A DNA stretch of 64,000 bases from Naegleria gruberi (taxonomy: Eukaryota). Position 1 is the first letter of the stretch. Every line of letters starts with the position of its first letter. The position numbers were made by a program, and so were the translations under genes. The stretch is from NCBI GenBank assembly GCA_000004985.1, contig GG738858.1. One strand, written 5' to 3'. A model generated the notes under the pieces. It searched no databases and was not told where the DNA came from. It saw only the letters and a list, made by a program, of their open reading frames with translations. Positions 27,040 through 55,309 of this stretch are shown piece by piece.

Positions 27040-28711
27040 ATGATGAACCAACAAACAAGTCACCAACATGCAGAAAATGCTTCGGAAGAAATAATTGAAT
27101 CATTTTCACCCTATTCTTGTGTTTATTGTAGAAAGGCACATCGTAAATGGTTAGTTTCAAAGTTATTAATCATGATTAATTTTATATTTATCTATATTAT
27201 TAGTGGTAAGTATTCTATTAATATTTAAATTAATATTATTAATATTTAATACATCATTCCATAAAGATAGAAAATTGCCATCATGTTCTAAATGTAAAAG
27301 TAGAAATTCGCCATGTGAATATGTTGATTTAAAAAGAAGGAAGAATATTCAAATTGGATCATCATCTGTTCAGGAATGTTTGGATTTACAAAATAATTTA
27401 AAACAATTGAATTTAATGGATGGAAATGATTTTGTACAAAATGATTTATTTGCATCTTTGAGAATGAATATAATTGGAGCTTATTTTGAAATAATTTGTT
27501 TGGGATGTCCTTTTTTGGAAAAAGAAACACTTGAAAGTTATTTATATTCAAAGGAAATTTTACAATCTAATAGATTAATACTTGCATTGGTATTTTCAAT
27601 TCAAACTCTTGTTGGTAAGTTAATTTTTTAAATTTACTATAAAAGGAAAGAGCAAAGATTTGGATTTGTAGATTTGGCATTTGAAAGTTATAAGAAAACT
27701 CTTTCAATTTTACCAAATGATAAAGCAGATCAATTTTATGCAGCATGTGTTTATGTAAATTTAGGAATTTACTTAATTGGAGAAGGTAAAAAGAAGGAAG
27801 CTAATTTTTATGCACATTGCTCTGATTACTATTTTAAACAATTAGATTCTAATTATCAACATAATGAATTTGATAGAAATTTAATTTGGTTTAAAATGAC
27901 ACTGGAATACATGTCTAGTCCATTATATCCATTAATGGCATCTCAAGAATTGATTGATAATTACAAAATTATATTGAAACATAACATGCCAATGGAATGG
28001 CAAGAAGTAGTGATGGATTTGAAAAATTCAACAATATCTAATGTTGAAAGCAGAATCAAAGTGTATCAATTAATTGCATTCACTTTACAGGGAGAGAGAA
28101 GAGTTGGAGGTTATGGAGTTTCATTATGTGAAATTATTTATTTATCAATGCATTCATGTATTTCAATTTCTTTCTATTCATTGGTAGATCCAATTTATTT
28201 TAAAGATCAAATTTATGCTGAAACTGTTAAAGCAGCAGAATTGACAGAATATGAACTATTTTCCTATTCTGCCCCTCAAGTAATTATGAATATTCTAGTT
28301 GCTATTAAGGTACATTTAGAAATGCAACAATTAGTGGAGAGTGGACAAATTACAGGAGTCTCCTTACAAGATTATTACAAAATTATTGCAAAGAATTATA
28401 GAGCTGTAAATATTTTGAGAAAAAAGTATAGAGTGATAGATGCACAACATTCAGATATTGTTACAAAACTTGAGGAACTAAATAAGGAGGTAGATAAGGA
28501 ACCTTCGCCTCAGCAATACAATATTGATGATAAGATGAAGAGATTGGAGGATTTTGAAAGTCAACTCAGTTCTGTCATGAAAAAATTTGTTAGTATGCTT
28601 CCATTTAAAGAAAAAGAAAACCAGCCACAAATGGAAGAACTCAATGGATTGGAATTCTATACAGACATGTTTTTATTGGATGATACAGATGATTTATTCT
28701 TAGAATTTTAA
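27040..28711 (+). CDS. Zn(II)2Cys6 (GAL4-type) binuclear-cluster transcription-factor-like protein, multi-exon. The last intron is 27615..27670. The 5' splice structure is unusual (see findings).
   Basis: 'SCVYCRKAHRK' (C-x2-C-R-K-x-H-x-K) followed by 'DRKLPSCSKCKSRNSPCEY' (C-x2-C-x6-C). GTAAGT donors at 27216 and 27615. The acceptor 'tttgtag' at 27670 is in phase with the ORF starting at 27674. Confidence 0.5.
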
Positions 28712-28720
28712 TAGGGTAAA

Positions 28721-31506
28721 TTATTTGACCATCTTTTTTGGTGCATCAAAATAACCACATGTTTGAAAGATGGTTTCACACATTTTAACTACTGCCTTCC
28801 GTTTTGATTCTTTCTTCCCTTTGTGTGGATCTCCTTGCACAGTACCAATTGGTTCAACAGTGCATGATGTAACATATCCTAACTTTGGTACCACTTGCTC
28901 TGAAAAAGTTGGGTGAGTCCTATAATTTATATTACAATGGTGTAATAAGGCGTTCATTATTGCATTATTTGAGATTGTTGACATAAATACATCCTTATCA
29001 GTTATTCTTATAGTGCTGCCTTTGTATTTGCTTTGAAGTTCTCTAGTAGTGATATTTGTATTGATCTCTTTTTCAAGAGTTTGATTGATTTTCTCATCCA
29101 CAATAATTGTATGTTTGTATCGTTCCTTATAAATTTCGGTCCAAGAACTTGTAGGGAAGATTGCTAAATCTCTATCAAGAAATTTCCTCAGCACTTCTAG
29201 TGATGCTGCATTCTTGGCATCTTGTTTTGATTTGAACATTGAAGATGAGGTCAAAACAAAGTAACTGGCTGCTTGCAAACCAAATTCTACCATTGAACGA
29301 TCATAATTGTTCAGTTTGATTAGAATACGAACAAAGAATAGATGTCCAACCTTGACTACCTGAAATATTGGTTTTACACCAAATAATTTTTCACATGTCA
29401 ACGTTAAGACAGTAGATTGAGTATTAGTGTTTTCTGTAAATTCGAACAGTTTCAATATAGTTTCCTCAACTTTGTAAATTGGTTCGCTATTCCATATGTA
29501 TTCGAAAATATGACTAATTACCATCTGTTTTAGCCCAATATTTTGTAAATGTAATTTTCTATAATAAACATCAGGATGTATCTTTTCAGATTTGGTAAGA
29601 AGTCCAATAGAAATTATCATTTTCTGTTCTTGAGTTTGATATTTTCCATATGAAGAGCTTGCTTCCACAGAATTAGAATGATGAATGCAATAAAATTCGG
29701 AATTTGCTGATCTAGCTCTTCCTCTTGATTGAATCATTGTTTTTGTTGTTTCAATTCCATCCAATCTAATAACAAGTGAACAAGCAGGAACATCTAAACC
29801 TTCTTCTGCTACACTTGTTGAAATAAGAGTATTTACAATTCCCTGTCTGAAATTATCTAGAATAGTATTTTGTTGATTTGATGTCATTCCACTCTTTCCA
29901 AGTAGAATATCAACTTTTAAATAATCTTTTAGGTCTGGTTCTGATTGTAAAAATTCTAAAGTCTCCTTACAACCAATTCTAGTTTTTACAAATATTAAAG
30001 CTCGTAATTCTTTTCCAGTTTCTTTGTATTGTTTCAATAACTTAGCCAACGCGAATCTCTTTGCACAATGAATTGGTAGAGAGCCTAAAGATAATTCATG
30101 TTCATAGCACATATGTGAAATTCCACAAAATTTTAAAGTTTTTAAAATCTCAATCTCCGTAAATGATTTTAAAAATTTTAACAAGTGATCCCAACTATTT
30201 TGTGTTAATTCAATAATTTTAATTCTACATACGCTGCAGTACATGATCTATGGTCATTGATCATTAAAGATTCATTAAGGACTGATAGAGTTTTACATGT
30301 TAAAATCAAATTTGAATTCTGCTTGTTAGATTTTGAATATCTAATAAAATCATCCAAATTTCTATTATCATCTTCCTTGTCATAAGTTCCTGTAACGTGA
30401 TTCATTTTCAAATCAAGCCATTCATCAGCTTCATCTGTTCCAAATTTGGAATCATCCATATCTACATCAGCATCTGATGAAAAATTTTCCAATAATTTAA
30501 TTTTAACTCCTCTAATAGCATTGAAAATGAAATCTCTCAATCTCAAAGAGAATGGATCCATATCTACTGAAATAGATTTCATTGAAGGTGTGAATACAAA
30601 TGTACCAAGCTCTTCTTCATTATTCTCAACTTGTCTCACTGTACAATCCAAATCATGTCCCAGTTGGAGTATCTTTAATAATGTCTCTGCAATGGTGTTT
30701 TTGGCAGCTGGTGTAGCACTCAAACCAAGTATTCTAGGTATTAATAGACCTGCATGCTTTCTTGGTTTATAATAATCTCTCATTAATACTTTAAATGGAT
30801 GATTTGAATGAGTATGATGGCATTCATCAAATATTAACAATTGCAAATCATCAAAAATGTCAGAATATTGTAAAACATTCAAAATGATTTGGATTGTACA
30901 GACAAGTACAGTAAAATCCTTTGTTTCTAATTTCCAATTCTTGATTGATTTCTTTTCTCCATGAAAAGCTCCAACTTTTTCAATTCCAAACTCTCTCAAT
31001 GCCCTCGCCTGCTGTTCAACAAGTGAAATTTGATTCACAATAAACAAAACCTTCTTGAATGGATTTAAATTCAACATGTGATGAATTAAAAGTGCAGCAA
31101 TAAATGTTTTACCAGCACCTGTCGGAGCAACAATGATTGTATTTTCATCTTTACAATGTTCTACCAATTCCTTTTGATATTCTCTTGCATTGGAGAGTAG
31201 TGTACTAGTTGCTGTAGAATTAGAAACAACACTTTCCGAACATGATCCTACCAATATATTATCGTTGTATGATGTTGTAGATGATTCATCAAATTGATGT
31301 TCGTTATCATCACCATCACCATGATGAATAGTGGAATTAAAATTGGTTGTTGTATTTAGTGTCGGAACATGTAATATTCTTCTTCCCTCATTATCAAACT
31401 CTTCTTCGAGTTTTAATTTTTCAAATGTTGTTTCCTCTTCTTGTTTAATTGATGAAGATGATGTAATTGGCCATGCAAATCCTGAGCATTTGATGTTATT
31501 GAACAT
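28721..31506 (-). CDS. Dicer/RIG-I-like DExH-box helicase with two C-terminal dsRBD-like motifs and no RNase III domain. Two exons: join(31506..30233, 30194..28721).
   Basis: Motif I 'IIVAPTGAGKTFIA', motif II 'LLIFDECHH', motif III 'LGLSATP', motif VI 'QSRGRARS'. dsRBD-like C-terminal helices 'SKQDAKNAASLEVLRKF' and 'KGKKESKRKAVVKMCETI'. A 38-nt intron has a GTATGT donor after 'tgtactgcagc' and the acceptor 'aaaatag'. It joins the two ORFs in phase: '...HRSCTA|AWDHLLKF...'. Confidence 0.8.
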
Positions 31507-31824: not shown

Positions 31825-32982
31825 ATGAAGAATATTTCATTTAATTGTAATGAAAACAAGTTTCAAAAAATGTCAATCATGATGCTATCCGATGATTTAT
31901 GTTATGAAATTGTTGGATATTTAGATTCATGTACAATTTTAAATACTTGTTCTCTGCTTTCCAAACAATGGTTGGAGGTTATTAGAACTAGATCACATAT
32001 TTCGGTTGAGTTGGATGGAAATATTTGTGATGAGAGAATAACTTCAATGATGAAGAGTCAATTTTTGGATAGTATTCAAAGTGTGAAAGTAAAAAGTGGT
32101 AATAATAGTGGGTCAATTGGTTATTTATTGAATTCTCTGTGTTTAATGAGGAATTTACAAGAGTTGTATCTTGTTTCTAAAGAATTGGATTCGAATGATG
32201 CACAAGTAATAAGTGAAATGAAGAGTTTGACGAAACTTGATCTGAATGGAAATAGAATTAGTGATGAGGGTGTTGATTTCATAAGTAAAATGAGCGGTTT
32301 GACCTATCTTAGGATAGATTCAAATGCTGTTCATGATGAAGGAGCAAAATCAATTCAAGGAATGAAAGGATTAAGAACTTTAAAAGTTTCTAATAATTCT
32401 TTTTTTGAAGTTGGATTTGAGGCAATAAGCCAAATGGGAAATTTAACAAAACTTGATATGAGTGAAAACTCATTGGGAATTGAGGGAACTAAATCGATAG
32501 GTATAATGAAAAATTTAACATCCCTCAAGATTGACTATAATCATATTGGTTCAGAAGGAGTTAAATATCTCAATGAAATGAAACAATTAACAAAGCTTTC
32601 AATTGTGGAAAATCAAATAGATGAAGAAGGAGCCAAGTACATTGGAGAGTTGAAACAATTGACAATACTTGACATTAGTTTCAATTATGTTGGGGAGAAA
32701 GGAGCCAAATCAATTAGTACATTGAACAAGCTAACAATGCTTGATATTATTGAAAATAATATTGGTGAAAATGGAGCAATTTCATTAAGTAATCTTAATC
32801 AATTAACCAAACTAGATATTAACTCTAATAATATTGGACATTTAGGAGCCAAATCACTTGTGAAATTGAATCAATTGAAAGAACTCAATATCAGCTATAA
32901 TAATATTAATGACTTAGAAATTAACATAATAAGACAAATGAAAAACTTGAAGAGCTTAACAAATCATTCTCAAAATCGATAG
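31825..32982 (+). CDS. F-box/leucine-rich-repeat protein.
   Basis: N-terminal F-box-like segment 'MLSDDLCYEIVGYLDSCTILNTCSLLSKQWLEVI'. About ten LRRs of the form 'LTKLDxxxNxIGxEGAKxI'. Confidence 0.7.
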   Translation: MKNISFNCNENKFQKMSIMMLSDDLCYEIVGYLDSCTILNTCSLLSKQWLEVIRTRSHISVELDGNICDERITSMMKSQFLDSIQSVKVKSGNNSGSIGYLLNSLCLMRNLQELYLVSKELDSNDAQVISEMKSLTKLDLNGNRISDEGVDFISKMSGLTYLRIDSNAVHDEGAKSIQGMKGLRTLKVSNNSFFEVGFEAISQMGNLTKLDMSENSLGIEGTKSIGIMKNLTSLKIDYNHIGSEGVKYLNEMKQLTKLSIVENQIDEEGAKYIGELKQLTILDISFNYVGEKGAKSISTLNKLTMLDIIENNIGENGAISLSNLNQLTKLDINSNNIGHLGAKSLVKLNQLKELNISYNNINDLEINIIRQMKNLKSLTNHSQNR

Positions 32983-35890: not shown

Positions 35891-36318
35891 TTATTCCTTC
35901 TTTTGTTGATTTTCGAAAAGAATACCAGCTTGATATTTCCTGCCCAATTGATATAAACCAGTACATCCAACGAAGAAGTTGACAGCAAACAAACCCCAGT
36001 TCTTTGGAATAATTTGAGTACTATATCTACTCCAAATAAATCCAGTAACAGTAAGAGCTACATTTTGGTTAGTGGAAACCAATTCAGGTGGCTTTGATAA
36101 ATCGGAAATACCAGCGATCACAAGACCCCACTTGAAAACCTGTTAACAATTAAAATTGAATTAAATTTTTTAAAGAATATTTTCTCAACATACTGGTGCC
36201 CAAAAGTGAACTGTAAAATGATTAAATAACAAAGATCACACAATGATGATGTATTAAATATTTACCTGTTCTAATACCAGCTTCTCCGTACCAAAGGTAA
36301 TGACGGAAGTTGGCAAAC
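35891..36318 (-). CDS. mpc: Mitochondrial pyruvate carrier (MPC/BRP44 family). Three exons including a 17-nt micro-exon: join(36318..36246, 36210..36194, 36139..35891).
   Basis: The spliced protein reads '...GIRTVHFWAPVFKWGLVIAGISDLSKPPELVS...IPKNWGLFAVNFFVGCTGLYQLGRKY', matching MPC 'THFWGPVANWGLPIAA...'. Introns of 35 nt (GTAAAT...ttttacag) and 54 nt (GTATGT...gttaacag) keep the phases consistent. Confidence 0.85.
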
Positions 36319-47493: not shown

Positions 47494-48720
47494 ATGACAT
47501 CAACAAGTGAACAAGTCCCACAACAACTTGCTGTTGTTGAAAGTGGAATCCCATTAATTAAAGAAGGAGATACAATTCTAGTAAAATTAAATAGTGGTTC
47601 AATGATTTTACAACAACATATTAAACCAGAAACAAATTTAAAAATCGGAAAGAAACAAACTTTTCCTTTAAAACTTTTAATAGGACAACCATATTATGCC
47701 TTCTATGAAATTTTGTCATCACAAAATGAAGGAGAGAAGCAACCATCAGTAGTTTTAAAACGTATGTTGTATGATCCTGATAGTGAGGAAGCTTCTGCTG
47801 TTATTCCTGGTGATGATGAAGCACCACAAGAAGAAATGCAAGATGAAGAAGGTGAAACTGTTGATGCTAATACAAAGAGATTAATTGATAATAACAAATC
47901 ACAAACTTTAACTCAAGATGAAATTTTAGAATTAAAAAAACAAGGAGTTGAAGGAAAGGAAATTATCAGCAAATTAATTGAAGGAAGTAAATCTTTCCAA
48001 GTTAGAACTCAATTTTCCCAACAAAAATACTTGAAGAGAAAGAAGAAGAAATATTTAACTTACTTTAAAGTTATTGATCCTTCTGCATATGATATTTGTG
48101 ATTTTTACTTTTCAAAGAATCCTGAGAAAATTAGTCATATGAGAGTTGATGGACTTGCTCAATTATTAACTTTAGGTTCTATTTATCCAAATAGAAAAGT
48201 AATGGTAATGGAAACTTGTATGGGTTTAGTTACTGCTGCTGTTTTTGAAAGAATGGGATGTTATGGTGAAATTATTCGTGTAGCTCCAGATGATATGCTT
48301 GGTAAACATGTTCATGCTGTTACCTATTTGAATATTAACAGAAATTTAGCTTCTAGTGTTGTTAGAGATGTTCCATTTGGAAAACTTGTATCTGGTGATA
48401 TGTCTGATGAAAATGCTACTGATGAAAATATGGTTGATTGTTTATTGATTGCTACTAATCAATATAGTCCAATCTCAGTTCTTACAAACTTGTATCCTTA
48501 TCTTAGAGAATCAGGATCATTTGCTATTTATTCTTCATACAGAGAACCATTAGAAGAATGTCACAACAAATTAAAGGATGACAAGTCAGCTGTTTTGGTT
48601 CAATTGACAGAAACATGGATGAGAGAATACCAAGTTCTTCCAAAGAGGACTCACCCAATGATGACAACGTCTAGTGCAAGCGGTTTCGTTTTGTCAGGTA
48701 TCAAAGTAAAGATTGATTAA
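47494..48720 (+). CDS. trm6: tRNA (adenine58-N1)-methyltransferase non-catalytic subunit TRM6 (GCD10/TRMT6).
   Basis: 'NKSQTLTQDEILELKKQGVEGKEIISKLIEGSKSFQVRTQFSQQKYLKRKKKKY' matches human TRMT6 'GKSQKLTQDDIKALKDKGIKGEEIVQQLIENSTTFRDKTEFAQDKYIKKKKKKY'. Also 'MVMETCMGLVTAAVFERMG' and 'ETWMREYQVLPKRTHP'. Confidence 0.85.
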   Translation: MTSTSEQVPQQLAVVESGIPLIKEGDTILVKLNSGSMILQQHIKPETNLKIGKKQTFPLKLLIGQPYYAFYEILSSQNEGEKQPSVVLKRMLYDPDSEEASAVIPGDDEAPQEEMQDEEGETVDANTKRLIDNNKSQTLTQDEILELKKQGVEGKEIISKLIEGSKSFQVRTQFSQQKYLKRKKKKYLTYFKVIDPSAYDICDFYFSKNPEKISHMRVDGLAQLLTLGSIYPNRKVMVMETCMGLVTAAVFERMGCYGEIIRVAPDDMLGKHVHAVTYLNINRNLASSVVRDVPFGKLVSGDMSDENATDENMVDCLLIATNQYSPISVLTNLYPYLRESGSFAIYSSYREPLEECHNKLKDDKSAVLVQLTETWMREYQVLPKRTHPMMTTSSASGFVLSGIKVKID

Positions 48721-51683
48721 TCTGTGTCAATAATTTTCTTTGGAGATCCACCAAATGATTGTCTTCTTGTCAGTCTTCTCATGTTGGCTGAATCACTAAG
48801 ATTCTCACTTGTTGCAACTGGAGTTCTTGTTTGCTTAATAGGACTATTTCTTCTCTTGACTGTTTTTCTTATCTTTTTACCTTCGATTTTTTCTGCGGCA
48901 GGATCATTACTACTTGTGCTAGTGTCAACACTATCATCAGAATCAGCGTTTGGATTAAAGACAGATATTGGACTGATATCACTAATAGATCTTGGTGTTT
49001 CGTAAGCCTTCTTTTCCATGTCAGGAGTTTTGGTTTGTTGACTTGTGGTAGGTGGTTGTACTGGCTGAACCTTATCTTTAATTACACTACTTCCAGATGA
49101 AAGCAAAGGGGTATTCGTGTTGGTTTCAATATTTGGAGTTGATGGATTGGAAGTGCAAATCGTTAACTTTTCTGGTGTTGATTTGAAACTGTCAATAGTC
49201 GAGGTTCTAGATTCTATTTTTTTCTCCCTTACTTTATCTTTCAAGGACTTATTTTCTTCCATAACAGTTTTGTTAATCTCAAGAATTCTTCTGTTGGTAG
49301 TGTTCAAATGTTCTACTTGTTCTTCAAGCTCTTTAATTCTTTCTGAAGAGGAGAGTTGGGCTGAATTTTTGAGAGTTTGTCGCAACCTATCTTCACTGTC
49401 AGCAGCTTTTTCTTTTTCAAGCATCATCATTCTTTCGCTTGATTTTATCTTTGCATTCTTCGTTGATATTTCTCTTTCTAATTTTCTAATTGTTTCTTTT
49501 TGAGATTCCGTCTCAGTGTTCAAAAATGAAACTTGTTCCTGAAGCTTTTTCATCGAATCCTCAAGCTGTCGTTTTCTTTCAGTGGATGATTCCAAAACCT
49601 CAGTTGTTTGTTTAAGAGTTTCTTCTGTGTTTGAATTTTGTAATCTCACTTTGTTATAGTTATCCTTTAATTTGGCAATAACTTCTTGTAATTCACCAAT
49701 ATTTCTTTGCAATTCCGACTTATTTTCTTGTAAGATGGCTATTGTTCTTTGCAGGTTTGTGTTTTCTTCTTTAAGTGCATCATTTTCCAATCTTTCAGTG
49801 TGTAATTGATCTCCAAACTTATCTTTCTGCTCTTTTAGCTCTTGGAATGAGTTTTCCAAATCATTTCTGAGATTTTGAACGTCTTGCATCAATTTTGAGT
49901 TTTCTTGTTTGTAAACAACTATTTTGTCTGACTGCTCTTTAGTTAGAGTTTCTTGGGAGGTAAGATCTTTTTTGAGTTTCTTGATTGCATTACTTAAATT
50001 CAACATTTGGTCTTTCATTTTAGATTTTGAGTCAGACAGCTGCACAATCTCAAAGTTCATTTGCTCTTGTAATGACTGGAGTCTCTCCTCATAATTTTTG
50101 ATAATCTGTTCATTTTCCTTATTCTTTTCCATTATTAGTGATTCAATAAAATTGTTGTGATAGTGAGGCATTGTTTCATAAATCCAATTAGTCATTAAAT
50201 CCGCCAACAATGTGTTTTTATCTCCTTTTGCTTTTTCGTTATATGAATCCAAACACTCCCTAAATTTCAAATTCATTTCTTCAATATTTCGAAAACTTCC
50301 AGATGTTGAAATCTGTGAAAAGGAAGAGCTCAGAATCTTGCTGTTGTACTCATAATTTATACTCCTAACCTCCTCTCTCACTATTTTAAAAATTTGAACA
50401 ATTGAATCATGTAATTGTCCAACATGGAATTGAACATCTCTTACCACAAGCTTTGAATTTTCCAAGAAATAAGAAACTGCTTCTGATTCTGATTCGAAGT
50501 GAATGTTTTCCAACTCTGTTTGATCCACGTTCTGTCTTAACAGCTTTTGCATTTTTGTTTTGTAAATTTTGATAGATTCTGAATGAACAGCATCACATTC
50601 AGTTTTCACTACATTACTCCAACAAGAATCCACTATAATAGAGCCATCATTGATGGCATTACAATAGTTCTCACACAAACTTATGAACATCCTACCATTC
50701 AACATTCTTCCTCCCAGTTCTTTAGGAGCAACTGTGTCTAATATTTTTTGTTTGAGTTTTTCTATTTGATTCCTAAACTCTGGTCTTATTTCATAGGATT
50801 CCAATTTTGAGGCATTTTGTAATTTCTTTTCATCGTGAATAGGTCTTACCAGAGTGAAACAATCTCTATCTCGGAAATATTGTTTCAGAGAGGCCTTAAT
50901 TTGTTGCTTATTCCTTTCAGTTTCGGTGTATCTTTCCTCACTGGATAAGGCAAATTCAAGATAATTCTTTGGTGTAATTTGTAAATCCAACGAAAAGTCT
51001 CTCACAACCCATAAAAAAGATGGGAATATTGCTTGATTATCCAATCCTCCAAGTTTTGATTTAACATATTTTGAAAGTTCAGTTACCAACCTAATAGATT
51101 TAGAAACTAGTTCAAACCAACAACTTACCCTAATCTGGTTATTGCGTTGTCATCAATGCTTCCTTGACTATTATAAATAAACATTGAACTCATTAGTAAA
51201 GCAAGAGAGAACACCTAAAACTGTTGAAGAAATACAACCAATAACAACTTACTTGTGTATCATAGGTCTCATTTGCACTGAAGGATCCAATTCCCTCCGA
51301 ATCAACAATTAATAATCTAAAATCTGGATGGTTGTCATTGCTTACTTTCATCGGAACGCTCCAGACCCATAATCCTTTTGTGCAGGGTAAATGTGAGGGA
51401 CTGGTAGTAAAGCTGTATTATTATTTACTAATGAATATTATTGGTTTTTAAAAACATACCCATCATTCCTATCTAAAATTTGATTAAGTAAAAAGCTTTT
51501 CCCCGATCGATAAACTCCAGCTATCGAAAGTACAGCAACCGGTTCTTTAATTTTCGAAATCACAGAGATTGCTTTTTTATCCACTTGAAACTTTCCATCA
51601 ATGTATGATATCAAAGGAATTTGTTGTGGCTGCAGCGTTGACAGCGAGGGCGATGTTGAATAGTCTTGTAGTGATGGTTCCAT
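48717..51683 (-). CDS. Guanylate-binding-protein (GBP) family large GTPase with a long C-terminal coiled coil. Four exons: join(51683..51460, 51412..51253, 51214..51129, 51090..48717).
   Basis: G1 'LSIAGVYRSGKSFLLNQIL', 'TKGLWVWSVP', 'LLIVDSEGIGS', 'VFSLALLMSSMFIYNSQGSIDDNAITRL', 'FLWVVRDFSL'. These match human GBP1 block by block. Introns of 47, 38 and 38 nt, all with GTAAGT/GTATGT donors and phase-consistent acceptors. Confidence 0.85.
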
Positions 51684-51949
51684 TTTTTACTAAGGATTGG
51701 TTCAAAAATATGGCGCCAAAACATGTATTTGCTTTTAGCGCCAAAAATAAATCAATATATTTGATGTATGGTGACATATTCTGAGGAGTGAATAAGAGTT
51801 AATACTATTAATATTAATTATTCTGAACAACAACATCATGAGATTGATTATTTATCTTTTTAATAGACTTAAAACAAACTATTTTGTAAAAATTCAAAAA
51901 GGTATTGTAATATCAATAGAATTTGTTATTTACATTTAGTGCCAAAAAA

Positions 51950-54900
51950 ATGCAACCAGCCAATCGAAAGCCAATCAAGGTCAAACCATCGAAAGGTTCT
52001 AGCACACAACAACCTGTAATTATAACAACCTCATCATCTAATCATCAACAAAATAATTCCGAATCACATTCTCCATCACCTCTAATTTTATCACCCACAA
52101 CCACTGGCACAAATAATTATGTATTTGAAAATGAAGGAGAACAAAACGAACAAAAAACCAACAAGAAAATCAGAGCAAAAAGAACAGGAGGGATATTGGG
52201 AAACTTTTTCGACGTTTCTAAAAATTTAAATGAAAATACACTAAATCAAATGGAATCCAAGATGAAAGAAATTATTGAATCGAGAAATTTGTTTAAAGAA
52301 AATAACTTGGAGTTGTGTGAAATGATCATGTCTGCTGATGTGGAATCGAAGAATGAATCAATTTCTCAACAAGAAATTCTCAAAATTGATTTGATAAATA
52401 GGCAAATGGCCGAATTGGAATCATTTGAAACAAATCTGAATAACTTTATTCAATCAAATGGCTCTTCTGGAATTACAAATCATCTTGTAAACGCTGTTAA
52501 TACAAGAAATGCTATGAGAAATGAGTGTATGAATAATCTTAACGAAGTTACTAACTTGTTGGGTGAAACATTGGAATCAATGAAAAATGACATCCCCGTA
52601 GAAAGGATTCAAAAAATAGATGAAATTCATTCAAAAATTCTTTTAGAAGAAGATGTTTTATCAGTTTCTGGTTCTGGTGAGTCTTTCAATATGTATGAGT
52701 TTAATAGGAGATCAAAGGAATACTTTGAGTGGGTTAAAAAATCCAGTCCAAAACTGATTATTCAATACAAGGAAACAAAGGCTGTTTTCAAGAAGTTTCT
52801 AGAAGCAATGGAAAAAGAGCTAAATCTTATGAAAGAGGTTAAAGAGGAGGAGAAGAAAATGATGGATAATTTTGAGTATATAATTACCTACACTCCTGAA
52901 TATTTGGAGGCAAAGCGACAAACAACTGCTGAGCCAAGTGAAAGAAAGACTCATATCAAGGAGTTACATAGCTACTATTTGAAACGTAAAATTGAAATGG
53001 AATCCAAAACACAACTACCACTTAAACCAGACCTTGAAAGCGTCAATCTATTTTACAATCAGCTTAACTCTTTGAAAACAGACTTGAGAGAGGCTAAAAG
53101 AAATCATCTAAAATTGAAATTTGAAAAAGAAAATCATGAGTTGGATGGAGTTTCTCAGTCTATTCTACAAATTTCAACACAAAAAGTTCAAGAAGCATCT
53201 GAGGTAGTTCATAGAATCGAAGAAAAGATTCAGCTATTTGAATCTAATCTAGAAAAATCCATCAAATTGCATCCAGAAATTTTAATTTACATTAACAGTT
53301 TCTCTAAGAATGATGATCTTATTCCTATATCAATTAAGGATACAAAGTTGGAGGTGAAGAGATCTATCAAAGATTATGAAATATTGAAAATAATCAATCC
53401 AAGGGTTTGCAAAGCAAAATTTGCTAACCAAATATCAATAATCAAACAGTACTCTTTTTCAGATAGCAAATCAAGAAAAGAGTTTATGAAGGAGGTTCAA
53501 ATTTTACACAAAATGAATCATCCTTGTATTGTAAAGATAGAAGCGTACTTTTGTGAGAATGACTTTGTATTTATTCAAATGGAACACAAAGGAGATTTAA
53601 CTCTAGCTGATTGGCTCCTTAAATCTCCTTCAGAATATGAAAAACGAAATGTATTTCACTCTGTGGCACAAACTTTGAAATATGTGCACGACTTTAATAT
53701 TATTCACTGTGACATCAAACCAGAGAATATAATAATGTCACCAATCGGTTCTAAATCAATTGGATCCGTACAGGAGATATATGAATCATATAGACCTATT
53801 CTTATTGACTTTGATATATCAGTTGACAAGAATTCCTTACAAAATTCTTTAGCAATCCGATCCACTTTAACTTACTTGGCTCCAGAAGTTGTTCATGCAG
53901 CTTCTACAGGTGCAGATTTCAAGAGTGTTTTGAATACATCAATAGATGTTTGGTCATTTGGTGTTATGATGTTTAAGGCATACTATCCAAATGATGAGGT
54001 GTTGCTTCTTCCAAACGAACACTCAGTAAGAATACCAGAACATGAAAATCAATATTTGCAAGATCTTTTATCAAATATTTTACAAAGAGACGCAAAAGAT
54101 AGACCTTGTGCTGAAGATATTTACTCTCATATCTATTTCAACTCGTCCATCATGAATGAACTAGTATCTCAAAAACAAATAGTTAGTACAGAAGACAAGA
54201 TGCAATCATTCAATAGATTTCTGCATCACTACAAGAAAAGAATGCAAAGGAACACTTCAGATGTTATTCAAATACGTATGAGAAGAGATGCAATAGTAGG
54301 TCACACATTACAAGCATTTTCATCTATGGAAATCAATGACTTACTTTTGAGACTTCAAGTGCAATTTGTTGGTGAAATTGGAATGGATTTGGGAGGAATT
54401 ACATCTAATATGTATACAGAGTTCTTCAGACAATCAATACAAAATGATCATAACATTTTTGAATGTGGTTCAAGCTCTAAAACTGGAGGTTACCTACCAA
54501 AGGCAGATGCACCAGTTGAGGTTTGTGAAAGTATTGGAAAAATTTTAATCAAAACAATTTACGATCAAAGAGTTATTCCAGAAGTGCTTTCTCCTTTCAT
54601 ATTCAAGTTTCTTTCACACAAATATTCATCAAGCGATCCTGATTACAATTCTTTGCAAGTAACTTTCAGAGATTTGGAACAATTTGATGAATCTATGGCA
54701 AGATCTTTGAGAATGCTCCTTACTCATGAAGGAGTGCACGAATGGGAAATTTCTTTTGATGGCCTGGGACAAGACTCTAATAGAATGGTAAATGATCAAA
54801 ATAAGCACGATTATGTTAAAATGAAAATGAGAAATGTTCTCTTACTCTCAAGATTAGAACAATTGAAAGCTATTAGGAAAGGTTTTAATTCGCTTGTTGA

Positions 54901-55309
54901 GCTTCAGCCTCAGCTGGCATTATTTAGTTGGAAAGAGCTAATGCTGCTTTGTTGTGGAAAGGATTATATTGATGTAAAATCAGTGATTGACCTATTGAAG
55001 TTCAAAGATTTCCCTACTAATAGTAGGACTCCTTTATTTTTCACTCAATTTATTTCTTCACTCTCTAGCATTCAGTTAAGGCAATTTATTGAATTCTCCA
55101 CTGGTCAATGTGGAATTTCCTACGGATGGCAATCCAAGGCTCTGAGCATCACTGTACAATACTCTTCCTCTTCAGTTGATTCATTACCTGTTTCTCATAT
55201 TTGCTCATTCATATTAGACCTTCCTGACTATAACAATTATCAACTTTTAGAAACGAAAATTAAGCAAGCTTTCGAATTTACCTCATCCTCCGGCTTTTAC
55301 ATTGCTTAG
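51950..55309 (+). CDS. Protein with a coiled-coil N-terminus, a central protein-kinase-like domain and a C-terminal HECT ubiquitin-ligase domain.
   Basis: Kinase segments: 'ISIIKQY', 'EFMKEVQILHKMNHPCIVKI', 'HCDIKPENIIM', 'LIDFDISV', 'LTYLAPEV', 'DVWSFGVMMF'. HECT segments: 'LQVQFVGEIGMDLGGITSNMYTEFF' and C-lobe 'LPVSHICSFILDLPDYNNYQLLETKIKQAFEF' with the catalytic Cys. It is a single uninterrupted 1120-aa frame from the ATG at 51950. Confidence 0.8.
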   Translation: MQPANRKPIKVKPSKGSSTQQPVIITTSSSNHQQNNSESHSPSPLILSPTTTGTNNYVFENEGEQNEQKTNKKIRAKRTGGILGNFFDVSKNLNENTLNQMESKMKEIIESRNLFKENNLELCEMIMSADVESKNESISQQEILKIDLINRQMAELESFETNLNNFIQSNGSSGITNHLVNAVNTRNAMRNECMNNLNEVTNLLGETLESMKNDIPVERIQKIDEIHSKILLEEDVLSVSGSGESFNMYEFNRRSKEYFEWVKKSSPKLIIQYKETKAVFKKFLEAMEKELNLMKEVKEEEKKMMDNFEYIITYTPEYLEAKRQTTAEPSERKTHIKELHSYYLKRKIEMESKTQLPLKPDLESVNLFYNQLNSLKTDLREAKRNHLKLKFEKENHELDGVSQSILQISTQKVQEASEVVHRIEEKIQLFESNLEKSIKLHPEILIYINSFSKNDDLIPISIKDTKLEVKRSIKDYEILKIINPRVCKAKFANQISIIKQYSFSDSKSRKEFMKEVQILHKMNHPCIVKIEAYFCENDFVFIQMEHKGDLTLADWLLKSPSEYEKRNVFHSVAQTLKYVHDFNIIHCDIKPENIIMSPIGSKSIGSVQEIYESYRPILIDFDISVDKNSLQNSLAIRSTLTYLAPEVVHAASTGADFKSVLNTSIDVWSFGVMMFKAYYPNDEVLLLPNEHSVRIPEHENQYLQDLLSNILQRDAKDRPCAEDIYSHIYFNSSIMNELVSQKQIVSTEDKMQSFNRFLHHYKKRMQRNTSDVIQIRMRRDAIVGHTLQAFSSMEINDLLLRLQVQFVGEIGMDLGGITSNMYTEFFRQSIQNDHNIFECGSSSKTGGYLPKADAPVEVCESIGKILIKTIYDQRVIPEVLSPFIFKFLSHKYSSSDPDYNSLQVTFRDLEQFDESMARSLRMLLTHEGVHEWEISFDGLGQDSNRMVNDQNKHDYVKMKMRNVLLLSRLEQLKAIRKGFNSLVELQPQLALFSWKELMLLCCGKDYIDVKSVIDLLKFKDFPTNSRTPLFFTQFISSLSSIQLRQFIEFSTGQCGISYGWQSKALSITVQYSSSSVDSLPVSHICSFILDLPDYNNYQLLETKIKQAFEFTSSSGFYIA

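What the first reader, a model, noticed from the sequence alone, without database searches (positions are those of the whole stretch)
28721..31506. Dicer-type DExH helicase with C-terminal dsRBD-like motifs and no RNase III domain
The helicase core has the 'PTGAGKTFIA', DECH and 'QSRGRARS' motifs typical of Dicer/RIG-I/FANCM-type helicases. The C-terminus carries two helices with the dsRBD consensus (G.G.SK..AK..AA..AL). The architecture is helicase plus dsRBD without nuclease. It resembles dicer-related helicases (DRH-type) or a small-RNA-pathway regulator. In dictyostelids the Dicer-type helicase module is otherwise described mainly on RdRPs and HelF.
Basis: partly seen in the sequence, partly recalled or inferred. 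Interest (0 to 1): 0.6.

Follow-up and report, generated by a model that had tools for sequence, protein, structure and literature searches.

The report
Naegleria Dicer-type helicase without nuclease
This is a real gene of the amoeboflagellate Naegleria gruberi, already named "dicer helicase" in GenBank, that joins a Dicer/RIG-I-type RNA helicase to two double-stranded-RNA-binding domains without any cutting domain; its function is untested and the public gene model seems to be mis-spliced.

Summary
Window 28721..31506 (minus strand) encodes one protein of 915 aa, in two exons joined by a 38-nt intron. It has an intact Dicer/RIG-I-clade DExH helicase: motifs I to VI, a helical Hel2i-like insertion and pincer-like helices. 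Two C-terminal domains are predicted to have the alpha-beta-beta-beta-alpha dsRBD fold. There is no RNase III, PAZ, RIG-I-type C-terminal domain or CARD in the protein, and no RNase III coding sequence anywhere in the 64 kb.

The organism is Naegleria gruberi (Heterolobosea), not a dictyostelid. N. gruberi has complete Dicers elsewhere in its genome. The gene is already in GenBank as EFC46563.1 / XP_002679307.1, "dicer helicase". That 857-aa model removes 58 conserved residues through a 212-nt intron; the 38-nt intron fits all orthologues.

Every named family member is heterolobosean (Naegleria x3, Willaertia, Acrasis x2). The family is monophyletic. Its position between the Dicer and RIG-I-like helicases is unresolved.

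The most likely role (inferred, not shown) is an ATP-driven dsRNA-binding accessory of the small-RNA pathway, like C. elegans DRH-1 and RDE-4 in one chain. Interest is modest: the gene is real, conserved and uncharacterised, but already annotated and of a known kind.

The parts
28721..31506 (-). Whole gene, start codon to stop codon: N. gruberi 'dicer helicase' (EFC46563.1 / XP_002679307.1 / D2V9B4). My model gives 915 aa.
30233..31506 (-). Exon 1 (aa 1-424 plus two bases of codon 425): disordered N-terminal ~100 aa, Hel1, first part of the helical insertion
30195..30232 (-). 38-nt intron, GTATGT...TTAAC (branch-site-like)...AG, phase 2
   Evidence: The junction aligns without a gap to orthologues. 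cDNA was not available.
28721..30194 (-). Exon 2 (aa 425-915 and the stop codon): rest of the insertion, Hel2, pincer-like helices, D1, linker, D2
30085..30296 (-). Alternative 212-nt intron used by the GenBank model. It removes 58 aa (KTLSVLNESLMINDHRSCTAAWDHLL...ELSLG) that are conserved in all orthologues, so it is probably wrong.
29654..31209 (-). Helicase core, aa 100-605 (Hel1, helical insertion, Hel2). The coordinates span the intron.
30697..31188 (-). Hel1 (Pfam ResIII/DEAD, aa 107-270) with motif I APTGAGKT (31105..31128), motif II FDECHH (30814..30831) and motif III LSATP (30709..30723)
30074..30654 (-). All-helical insertion between Hel1 and Hel2 (about aa 285-465), Hel2i-like. Weak Pfam RIG-I_C (PF18119) match at aa 395-440. 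Boundaries are approximate.
   Evidence: 17 bits, below threshold; helices only between the two RecA-like halves in the orthologue model..
29714..30049 (-). Hel2 (Pfam Helicase_C, aa 474-585) with motif IV (29978..29998), motif V (29789..29821) and motif VI QSRGRARS (29708..29731)
29174..29419 (-). D1 (aa 684-765): divergent dsRBD-fold domain, in the position of Dicer DUF283. Last helix is SKQDAKNAASLEVLRKFL.
   Evidence: fold; block-mean pLDDT about 74-89 with one low-confidence loop. (hhalign to the DUF283 region of Dicers, prob 77%, E 2e-5). (only weak direct PDB sequence matches).
28757..28969 (-). D2 (aa 834-904): dsRBD with a near-canonical KKxxK helix (GKKESKRKAVVKMCETIF)
   Evidence: fold. 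(family profile against RDE-4, R2D2, TRBP and Loqs dsRBDs, E 1e-8 to 1e-6). (Dicer_dimer 18 bits, below threshold).

Best explanation
The region is the Naegleria gruberi gene already annotated as 'dicer helicase'. It encodes a stand-alone helicase of the Dicer/RIG-I clade of SF2 DExH helicases (the 'duplex-RNA-activated ATPases'; that label is from my own knowledge).

Layout: about 100 disordered N-terminal residues; Hel1; a helical Hel2i-like insertion; Hel2; pincer-like helices; a divergent dsRBD-fold domain where Dicer has DUF283 (D1); a disordered linker; and a near-canonical dsRBD (D2). There is no nuclease.

Shown: the architecture, the intact ATPase motifs, the dsRBD folds (as predictions), the absence of RNase III/PAZ/RIG-I-type CTD, and conservation across Heterolobosea.

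Inferred: the protein binds double-stranded RNA through D1/D2 and the helicase, and uses ATP to translocate along it. It would act in trans in the small-RNA pathway alongside the separately encoded complete Dicers. Functionally this would combine in one chain what C. elegans splits between DRH-1 (ATP-driven helicase) and RDE-4 (tandem dsRBD) in the Dicer antiviral complex.
For: Identity and architecture:
- Pfam helicase domains.
- PDB sequence matches to DCL4, ancestral Dicer helicase, DCL1 and RIG-I at E 1e-45 to 1e-42, against FANCM at 1e-20.
- All helicase motifs intact.
- The full-length model of the 51%-identical N. lovaniensis orthologue matches RIG-I, MDA5, LGP2 and ancestral Dicer helicase at E about 1e-24.
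- The D2 family profile hits RDE-4 dsRBD2 at 1e-8 and R2D2 at 2e-7.
- D1 aligns to the DUF283 region of Dicers.

No nuclease.

Conservation, which argues for function: orthologues with the same layout in N. lovaniensis, N. fowleri, Willaertia magna and Acrasis kona (two), plus metagenomic relatives. Family monophyly has 95.5% NJ bootstrap support.

Context: N. gruberi has complete Dicers elsewhere (PMC3566956; PMC4791657).

Against: - There is no experimental or expression evidence of any kind.
- Intact motifs do not guarantee ATPase activity; human Dicer has them and does not hydrolyse ATP (PMC10159624 abstract).
- D1 has lost the His-containing beta1-beta2 loop motif in the Naegleria/Willaertia members, so it may mediate protein contacts rather than RNA binding.
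- Pfam dsRBD scores on the window protein alone are sub-threshold.
- No RNAi gene lies nearby, though linkage is not expected in eukaryotes.
- The closest functional precedent with a helicase plus dsRBD outside animals, Dictyostelium HelF, is reported as making cells hypersensitive to RNAi when deleted, i.e. a suppressor and not a cofactor (PMC2175303).
Confidence: 0.5

Rival explanations
1. It is an RLR-like cytosolic dsRNA sensor or antiviral effector that works independently of Dicer. It would bind viral dsRNA and oligomerise or signal through its disordered N-terminus, which carries short conserved motifs.
For: The family profile scores RIG-I-like proteins somewhat higher than Dicers (312 against 222 bits). 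The structural top hits are RIG-I, MDA5 and LGP2. Small N-terminal motifs (GFAWP, RRIL..PTL) are conserved among orthologues. Naegleria is a host of giant viruses (PMC13315211).
Against: There is no CARD, no RIG-I-type zinc-binding CTD and no recognisable signalling domain. The NJ tree puts the family weakly on the Dicer side rather than with RLRs (28% support). D1 resembles Dicer DUF283.
Confidence: 0.2
2. It is a negative regulator of RNAi that competes for or sequesters dsRNA, like Dictyostelium HelF or vertebrate LGP2 acting on Dicer.
For: HelF is also a helicase plus dsRBD without a nuclease, and its loss makes cells hypersensitive to RNAi (PMC2175303; PMC4894637). LGP2 inhibits Dicer processing of long dsRNA (PMC5813259, title and abstract).
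Against: HelF has a different domain order: its dsRBD is N-terminal. Orthology to HelF could not be tested. Nothing in the sequence tells an activator from an inhibitor.
Confidence: 0.15
3. It is a FANCM/Hef/Mph1-type DNA translocase. JGI names several relatives 'ERCC4-related helicase'.
For: The JGI/IMG names for cluster members. FANCM and Hef do appear among the PDB sequence matches (E 1e-20 and 1e-26).
Against: RLR and Dicer matches are about 16-25 orders of magnitude better. The protein has a Hel2i-like insertion and RLR-like global fold. It has no ERCC4 or HhH domains. Its C-terminal domains are dsRBDs.
Confidence: 0.05
4. It is a decayed or truncated Dicer (a pseudogene or an assembly artefact) that has lost its nuclease half.
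For: The layout equals Dicer minus PAZ and RNase III. The reading frame is interrupted once.
Against: The frame break is a well-formed intron and is identical in an independent assembly. All helicase motifs are intact. The same nuclease-less layout is conserved in at least six heterolobosean genes from four genera. A convergent gene abuts the stop codon.
Confidence: 0.03

Closest known systems
Dicer (class 3 RNase III; e.g. Drosophila Dcr-2, Arabidopsis DCL1/DCL4, N. gruberi D2UZR2)
   Same: An N-terminal DExH helicase with a helical insertion, followed by a dsRBD-fold domain in the DUF283 position, and a dsRBD at the C-terminus. PDB sequence matches to DCL4 and DCL1 are among the best (E 1e-45 to 1e-42). 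D1 aligns to the DUF283 region.
   Different: It lacks the platform/PAZ module and both RNase III domains, so it cannot dice. It is about 915 aa, against 1300-1900 aa.
RIG-I-like receptors and nematode Dicer-related helicases (RIG-I, MDA5, LGP2; DRH-1, DRH-3)
   Same: A stand-alone helicase of the same clade without a nuclease. Overall helicase fold is the best structural match. The precedent for such a helicase working with Dicer and a dsRBD protein is DCR-1/DRH-1/RDE-4 (PMC11095941).
   Different: There is no zinc-binding RIG-I-type C-terminal domain (PF11648) and no CARDs. The C-terminal RNA-binding module is two dsRBD-fold domains instead. PDB sequence similarity to DRH is weaker (E 4e-24) than to RIG-I or Dicers.
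Dictyostelium HelF
   Same: A protist helicase of the Dicer-related type combined with a dsRBD and no nuclease. It is genetically linked to RNAi (PMC2175303, PMC4894637).
   Different: HelF has one dsRBD at the N-terminus (aa 2-76) before the helicase. Here the N-terminus is disordered and two dsRBD-fold domains follow the helicase. It is in a different supergroup (Amoebozoa against Discoba). Orthology was not tested.
Tandem-dsRBD Dicer partners (RDE-4, R2D2, Loquacious, TRBP, HYL1/DRB)
   Same: The D2 family profile matches their dsRBDs best (E 1e-8 to 1e-6). The two-domain C-terminal model matches them as tandem units.
   Different: Those proteins have no helicase. Here the dsRBD module is fused to one.

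Membership tests
Dicer/RIG-I clade of SF2 helicases (duplex-RNA-activated ATPases) | Two RecA-like domains with motifs I-VI, including DECH and QxRGRxR | tested here: met
Dicer/RIG-I clade of SF2 helicases (duplex-RNA-activated ATPases) | All-helical Hel2i insertion between Hel1 and Hel2, and pincer helices after Hel2 | tested here: met
   In the orthologue model there are only helices between the two RecA-like halves, and a long helix follows Hel2. RIG-I, MDA5, LGP2 and the Dicer helicase are the top structural matches. Duck RIG-I aligns by sequence through aa 649, about 60 residues past motif VI. The Pfam RIG-I_C match is sub-threshold. Model confidence is moderate (mean pLDDT 62).
Dicer/RIG-I clade of SF2 helicases (duplex-RNA-activated ATPases) | dsRNA-stimulated ATPase activity | not testable with these tools
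   Needs biochemistry.
Dicer | Two RNase III domains | tested here: not met
   No Pfam hit in the protein or in any of 12 family members. tblastn with six Dicers finds only the helicase in the 64 kb.
Dicer | Platform/PAZ module | tested here: not met
Dicer | DUF283 (Dicer dimerisation, dsRBD fold) directly after the helicase | tested here: inconclusive
   D1 has the fold and the position, and hhalign places it on the DUF283 region of Dicers (prob 77%, E 2e-5). However, Pfam Dicer_dimer hits in this family fall on D2, or are sub-threshold.
RIG-I-like receptors / DRH | Zinc-binding C-terminal regulatory domain (Pfam RIG-I_C-RD, PF11648) | tested here: not met
   No hit in 12 members. The C-terminus folds as dsRBDs.
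RIG-I-like receptors / DRH | N-terminal CARDs (RIG-I, MDA5) or a structured autoinhibitory NTD (DRH-1) | tested here: not met
   No CARD hit. The N-terminal ~130 aa of the orthologue model have pLDDT below 35.
dsRBD (Pfam dsrm PF00035 / Dicer_dimer PF03368) | alpha-beta-beta-beta-alpha fold | tested here: met
dsRBD (Pfam dsrm PF00035 / Dicer_dimer PF03368) | Sequence-profile match at the curated threshold | tested here: inconclusive
   The window protein alone is below threshold: dsrm 13.5 against 23, Dicer_dimer 18.1 against 23.7. Orthologues pass: P0041 dsrm 35.1, P0036 Dicer_dimer 26.3. Counts are 5/12 and 4/12 members at E<=0.01. The D2 family profile hits PDB dsRBDs at 1e-8. The D1 profile reaches only E 0.3.
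dsRBD (Pfam dsrm PF00035 / Dicer_dimer PF03368) | Actual dsRNA binding | not testable with these tools
   The KKxxK helix is kept in D2 and SKxxAK in D1. The His loop of D1 is lost in the Naegleria/Willaertia members.
Dictyostelium HelF | N-terminal dsRBD preceding the helicase | tested here: not met
   HelF layout is from PMC4894637. Here the N-terminus is disordered.
Dictyostelium HelF | Orthology of the helicase domain | not tested
   No HelF sequence was available to the tools.
FANCM/Hef | C-terminal ERCC4 nuclease-like domain and HhH motifs | tested here: not met

The most novel reading that the evidence does not exclude
The heterolobosean helicase-DUF283-dsRBD family could be an ancient, non-animal lineage of stand-alone Dicer/RIG-I-type helicases. 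It would fuse the DRH-1-like (ATP-driven translocase) and RDE-4-like (dsRBD) functions in one chain and feed dsRNA in trans to Naegleria's Dicers, or sense viral dsRNA. That would show that 'RLR-style' nuclease-free dsRNA helicases arose outside Metazoa, independently or before the Dicer/RLR split.
Probability: 0.15. Interest if true: 0.6.

Novelty: new member of a known kind. Interest (0 to 1): 0.3.

Why it matters
Nuclease-free helicases of the Dicer/RIG-I clade are best known from animals (RLRs, nematode DRHs). From my own knowledge, the usual view is that this stand-alone form is an animal development. A conserved stand-alone lineage in Heterolobosea, a deep branch of eukaryotes that also keeps complete Dicers, is a useful outgroup. 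It could help in asking how the helicase, DUF283 and dsRBD modules of Dicer were assembled or shed, and whether ATP-driven dsRNA handling in trans is older than animals.

In practice, Naegleria (including the pathogen N. fowleri, which has an orthologue, FDP41_006228) is a target for developing RNAi tools. An activator or suppressor of RNAi would be relevant there.

The immediate concrete gain is small: a corrected gene model for an already annotated gene, and a domain description of its C-terminus.

Tried and rejected
I therefore modelled the window's own C-terminal 308 aa and the full-length N. lovaniensis orthologue.
- A word-indexed search with the C-terminal profile returned only two proteins. 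The exhaustive HMMER search was needed.
- The Biopython bootstrap timed out and was replaced by a numpy NJ bootstrap. This tree is only NJ on about 480 columns with 32 sequences. It lacks DRH-1/3, HelF, RdRP-borne helicases and the N. gruberi Dicers, so the Dicer-versus-RLR placement (28% support) is not resolved.
- The afdb50 fold library was unavailable.
- A literature search for the accessions found nothing. No paper found discusses this protein.
- I looked for an RNAi-related neighbour in the window and found none.
- I considered a sequencing frameshift in place of an intron. It is rejected because an independent assembly is identical and the intron has consensus GTATGT, a branch-like TTAAC and AG.
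- I considered a split Dicer whose nuclease half lies nearby. It is rejected and by the literature on complete N. gruberi Dicers.
- I could not assign D1 and D2 unambiguously to DUF283 or to the C-terminal dsRBD of Dicer. Both align best to the DUF283 region by hhalign.
Full report
**What is in the sequence**

On the minus strand there are two long ORFs, 31506..30205 (433 aa) and 30244..28721 (507 aa). They overlap in different frames. The overlap contains a 38-nt element, GTATGTAGAATTAAAATTATTGAATTAACACAAAATAG (window 30195..30232). It has a consensus 5' splice site, a branch-site-like TTAAC nine bases before the 3' AG, and it is the right length to restore the frame.

Removing it gives a 915-aa protein. 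This protein aligns without a gap across the junction to five homologues (INDHRSCTAA|WDHLLKFLK against INDHRSPYDAWEQLKKFLN), and W426 is invariant. A metagenome contig assembled independently is identical over this stretch, so the frame break is real.

The start codon is supported by conserved N-terminal motifs shared with orthologues. The stop codon (28721..28723) lies 10 bp from the stop of a convergent plus-strand gene.

**Organism, and the fact that the gene is already annotated**

The best homologues are from Naegleria lovaniensis (51% identity, 99% coverage) and Willaertia magna (39%). Exact look-ups of two other ORFs in the window return Naegleria gruberi proteins XP_002679303 and XP_002679311, on a 782-kb scaffold. 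The window is therefore N. gruberi, not a dictyostelid.

The 90%-identity cluster of the second ORF contains EFC46563.1 / XP_002679307.1 / UniProt D2V9B4, named 'dicer helicase [Naegleria gruberi]', 857 aa. That model differs from mine in one respect. It uses a 212-nt intron (window 30085..30296) that deletes 58 residues. Those residues are conserved in the alignable family members (59% identity to N. lovaniensis, 16-48% to nine others), and they include residues that are invariant among the five closest homologues and nearly so across the wider family, such as R420 and W426. The 38-nt intron is therefore the better model, pending cDNA.

I found no paper that discusses this protein.

**The helicase**

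Pfam finds ResIII/DEAD at aa 107-270 and Helicase_C at aa 474-585. Motifs I (APTGAGKT), Ia, Ic, II (FDECHH), III, IV, IVa, V and VI (QSRGRARS) are all intact.

By sequence, the best solved relatives are Arabidopsis DCL4 (8e-45), a reconstructed ancestral Dicer helicase (4e-43), DCL1 (1e-42) and RIG-I (3e-42). Further down are Dcr-2, MDA5 and LGP2, a nematode Dicer-related helicase (4e-24), Hef (2e-26) and FANCM (2e-20).

I made an AlphaFold model of the N. lovaniensis orthologue. It is only moderately confident (mean pLDDT 62; helicase blocks mostly about 65-88, with several low-confidence loops; 8-row alignment). It has a purely helical insertion between the two RecA-like halves, and long helices after Hel2. 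Its best structural matches are RIG-I, MDA5, LGP2 and the ancestral Dicer helicase, at E about 1e-24.

A neighbour-joining tree of about 480 helicase columns recovers the family as a clade (95.5% of 200 bootstraps). It places that clade on the Dicer side with only 28% support. The family belongs to the Dicer/RIG-I clade, but its position inside that clade is unresolved.

**The C-terminus**

An AlphaFold model of the window's own last 308 residues (5-row alignment, mean pLDDT 68) shows two alpha-beta-beta-beta-alpha domains. D1 is aa 684-765 and D2 is aa 834-904 in full-length numbering, block-mean pLDDT about 74-91 apart from a low-confidence loop inside D1 (about aa 722-732). A disordered linker separates them.

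- Foldseek's top hits are tandem-dsRBD partners of Dicer and Drosha (Loqs-PB 4e-5, DGCR8, TRBP, R2D2, RDE-4) and the dsRBD-fold parts of Dicers.
- By sequence, an 11-member profile of D2 matches RDE-4 dsRBD2 (1e-8), R2D2 (2e-7), TRBP (9e-7) and Loqs (2e-6). D2 keeps the KKxxK start of the last helix.
- D1 is more divergent. Its profile reaches only E 0.3 against PDB dsRBDs. Profile-profile comparison aligns it to the DUF283 region that follows the helicase in Dicers (probability 77%, E 2e-5). D2 also aligns best there, more weakly (46%).
- In the Acrasis and several metagenomic members, D1 still has a GxxHxPxF-like beta1-beta2 loop. This loop is lost in the Naegleria/Willaertia members.

On the window protein alone, Pfam scores for Dicer_dimer (18.1 bits) and dsrm (13.5 bits) are below the curated cut-offs. 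Among 12 family members, 5 match Dicer_dimer and 4 match dsrm at E<=0.01.

**What is absent**

No member matches RNase III, PAZ, RIG-I C-terminal domain, CARD or ERCC4 models. tblastn with six complete Dicers finds only the helicase in the whole 64-kb window. The neighbouring genes are TAF2, HEAT, U-box, a PTB-like RRM protein, a GBP-like GTPase, a kinase-HECT fusion and BTB; none is an RNAi gene.

N. gruberi encodes complete Dicers elsewhere. D2UZR2 has all canonical domains, D2VEU9 has a helicase plus RNase III (PMC3566956), and three DCRs are listed in PMC4791657. N. fowleri has a 1524-aa Dicer candidate (PMC13315211).

**Distribution**

An exhaustive HMMER search of 1.8 billion representatives with the C-terminal profile found only 44 proteins at E<=1e-3. 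About a dozen are true family members. The rest are generic multi-dsRBD proteins that match D2.

Every member that carries a name is heterolobosean:
- N. gruberi
- N. fowleri FDP41_006228
- N. lovaniensis C9374_008448
- Willaertia magna ABK040_008995
- Acrasis kona AKO1_015735 and AKO1_007044

The others come from metagenomes or unnamed assemblies.

**How it most likely works**

What is shown is the architecture and its conservation. The function is inferred. A helicase of this clade with intact motifs, followed by a DUF283-like domain and a near-canonical dsRBD, is built to bind double-stranded RNA and probably to hydrolyse ATP on it. Without a nuclease it must act through partners.

The closest mechanistic precedent is the C. 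elegans DCR-1/DRH-1/RDE-4 complex. [quoted passage not shown] The Naegleria protein looks like both accessory functions in one chain. I give this reading about 0.5.

The main rivals are a Dicer-independent dsRNA sensor (0.2) and a HelF/LGP2-like suppressor of RNAi (0.15). A DNA translocase (0.05) and a decayed Dicer (0.03) are largely excluded by the data above.

**Comparison and novelty**

The protein is not a Dicer, because it has no RNase III or PAZ. It is not an RLR or DRH in the strict sense, because it has no RIG-I-type CTD. It does not have the HelF layout, in which the dsRBD is N-terminal. It is a member of the broader Dicer/RIG-I helicase clade with a distinct accessory module.

The gene is already in public databases under the name 'dicer helicase', and nuclease-free helicases of this clade are a known kind. 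I therefore rate it a new (uncharacterised) member of a known kind, with modest interest (0.3). The corrected intron and the description of the two dsRBD-fold domains are the concrete additions.

Noticed in passing
window 30085..30296 (-), against 30195..30232 (-): The GenBank model EFC46563.1 (857 aa) splices out 212 nt and so loses 58 residues of the helical insertion that are conserved in the alignable orthologues. A 38-nt GTATGT...AG intron restores the frame and keeps them. The public model is probably mis-annotated.
   Followed up: yes
window 51923..55306 (+): One ORF of 1128 aa has a protein kinase domain (aa 496-739) followed by a HECT ubiquitin-ligase domain (aa 833-1120). This is an unusual fusion.
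   Followed up: no
window 48720..51089 (-): An ORF with guanylate-binding-protein N- and C-terminal domains, i.e. a GBP-like GTPase. From my own knowledge, GBPs take part in cell-autonomous immunity in animals.
   Followed up: no
window 36131..36193 (-): The only other match in the window to the short-intron-like pattern GTATGT...TTAAC...AG (63 nt). Two matches against 0.46 expected by chance. It is possibly another small intron.
   Followed up: no
window 27203..28711 (+): A convergent neighbour gene whose stop lies 10 bp from the helicase stop. An upstream ORF contains a Cys pattern (CSKCKSRNSPCEY) that by eye resembles a Zn2Cys6 zinc cluster. The 345-aa downstream part has no Pfam match.
   Followed up: partly
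window 31825..32982 (+): A divergently oriented 385-aa ORF, about 320 bp upstream of the helicase start, made by eye of leucine-rich repeats. The exact ORF is not in the protein collection, so the public model probably differs.
   Followed up: partly
P0042 (Acrasis kona KAL0491710, named 'PUT4', 432 aa): A protein with no detectable helicase domain that matches the D2 profile and Pfam Dicer_dimer. It may be a free-standing relative of this family's dsRBD module, or a fragmentary gene model.
   Followed up: partly
P0019 (Bryopsis sp. KO-2023 BSKO_01324, 1418 aa): A green-algal helicase for which only helicase-type Pfam domains are on record. It groups weakly (52% bootstrap) as sister to the heterolobosean family in the NJ tree.
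   Followed up: no
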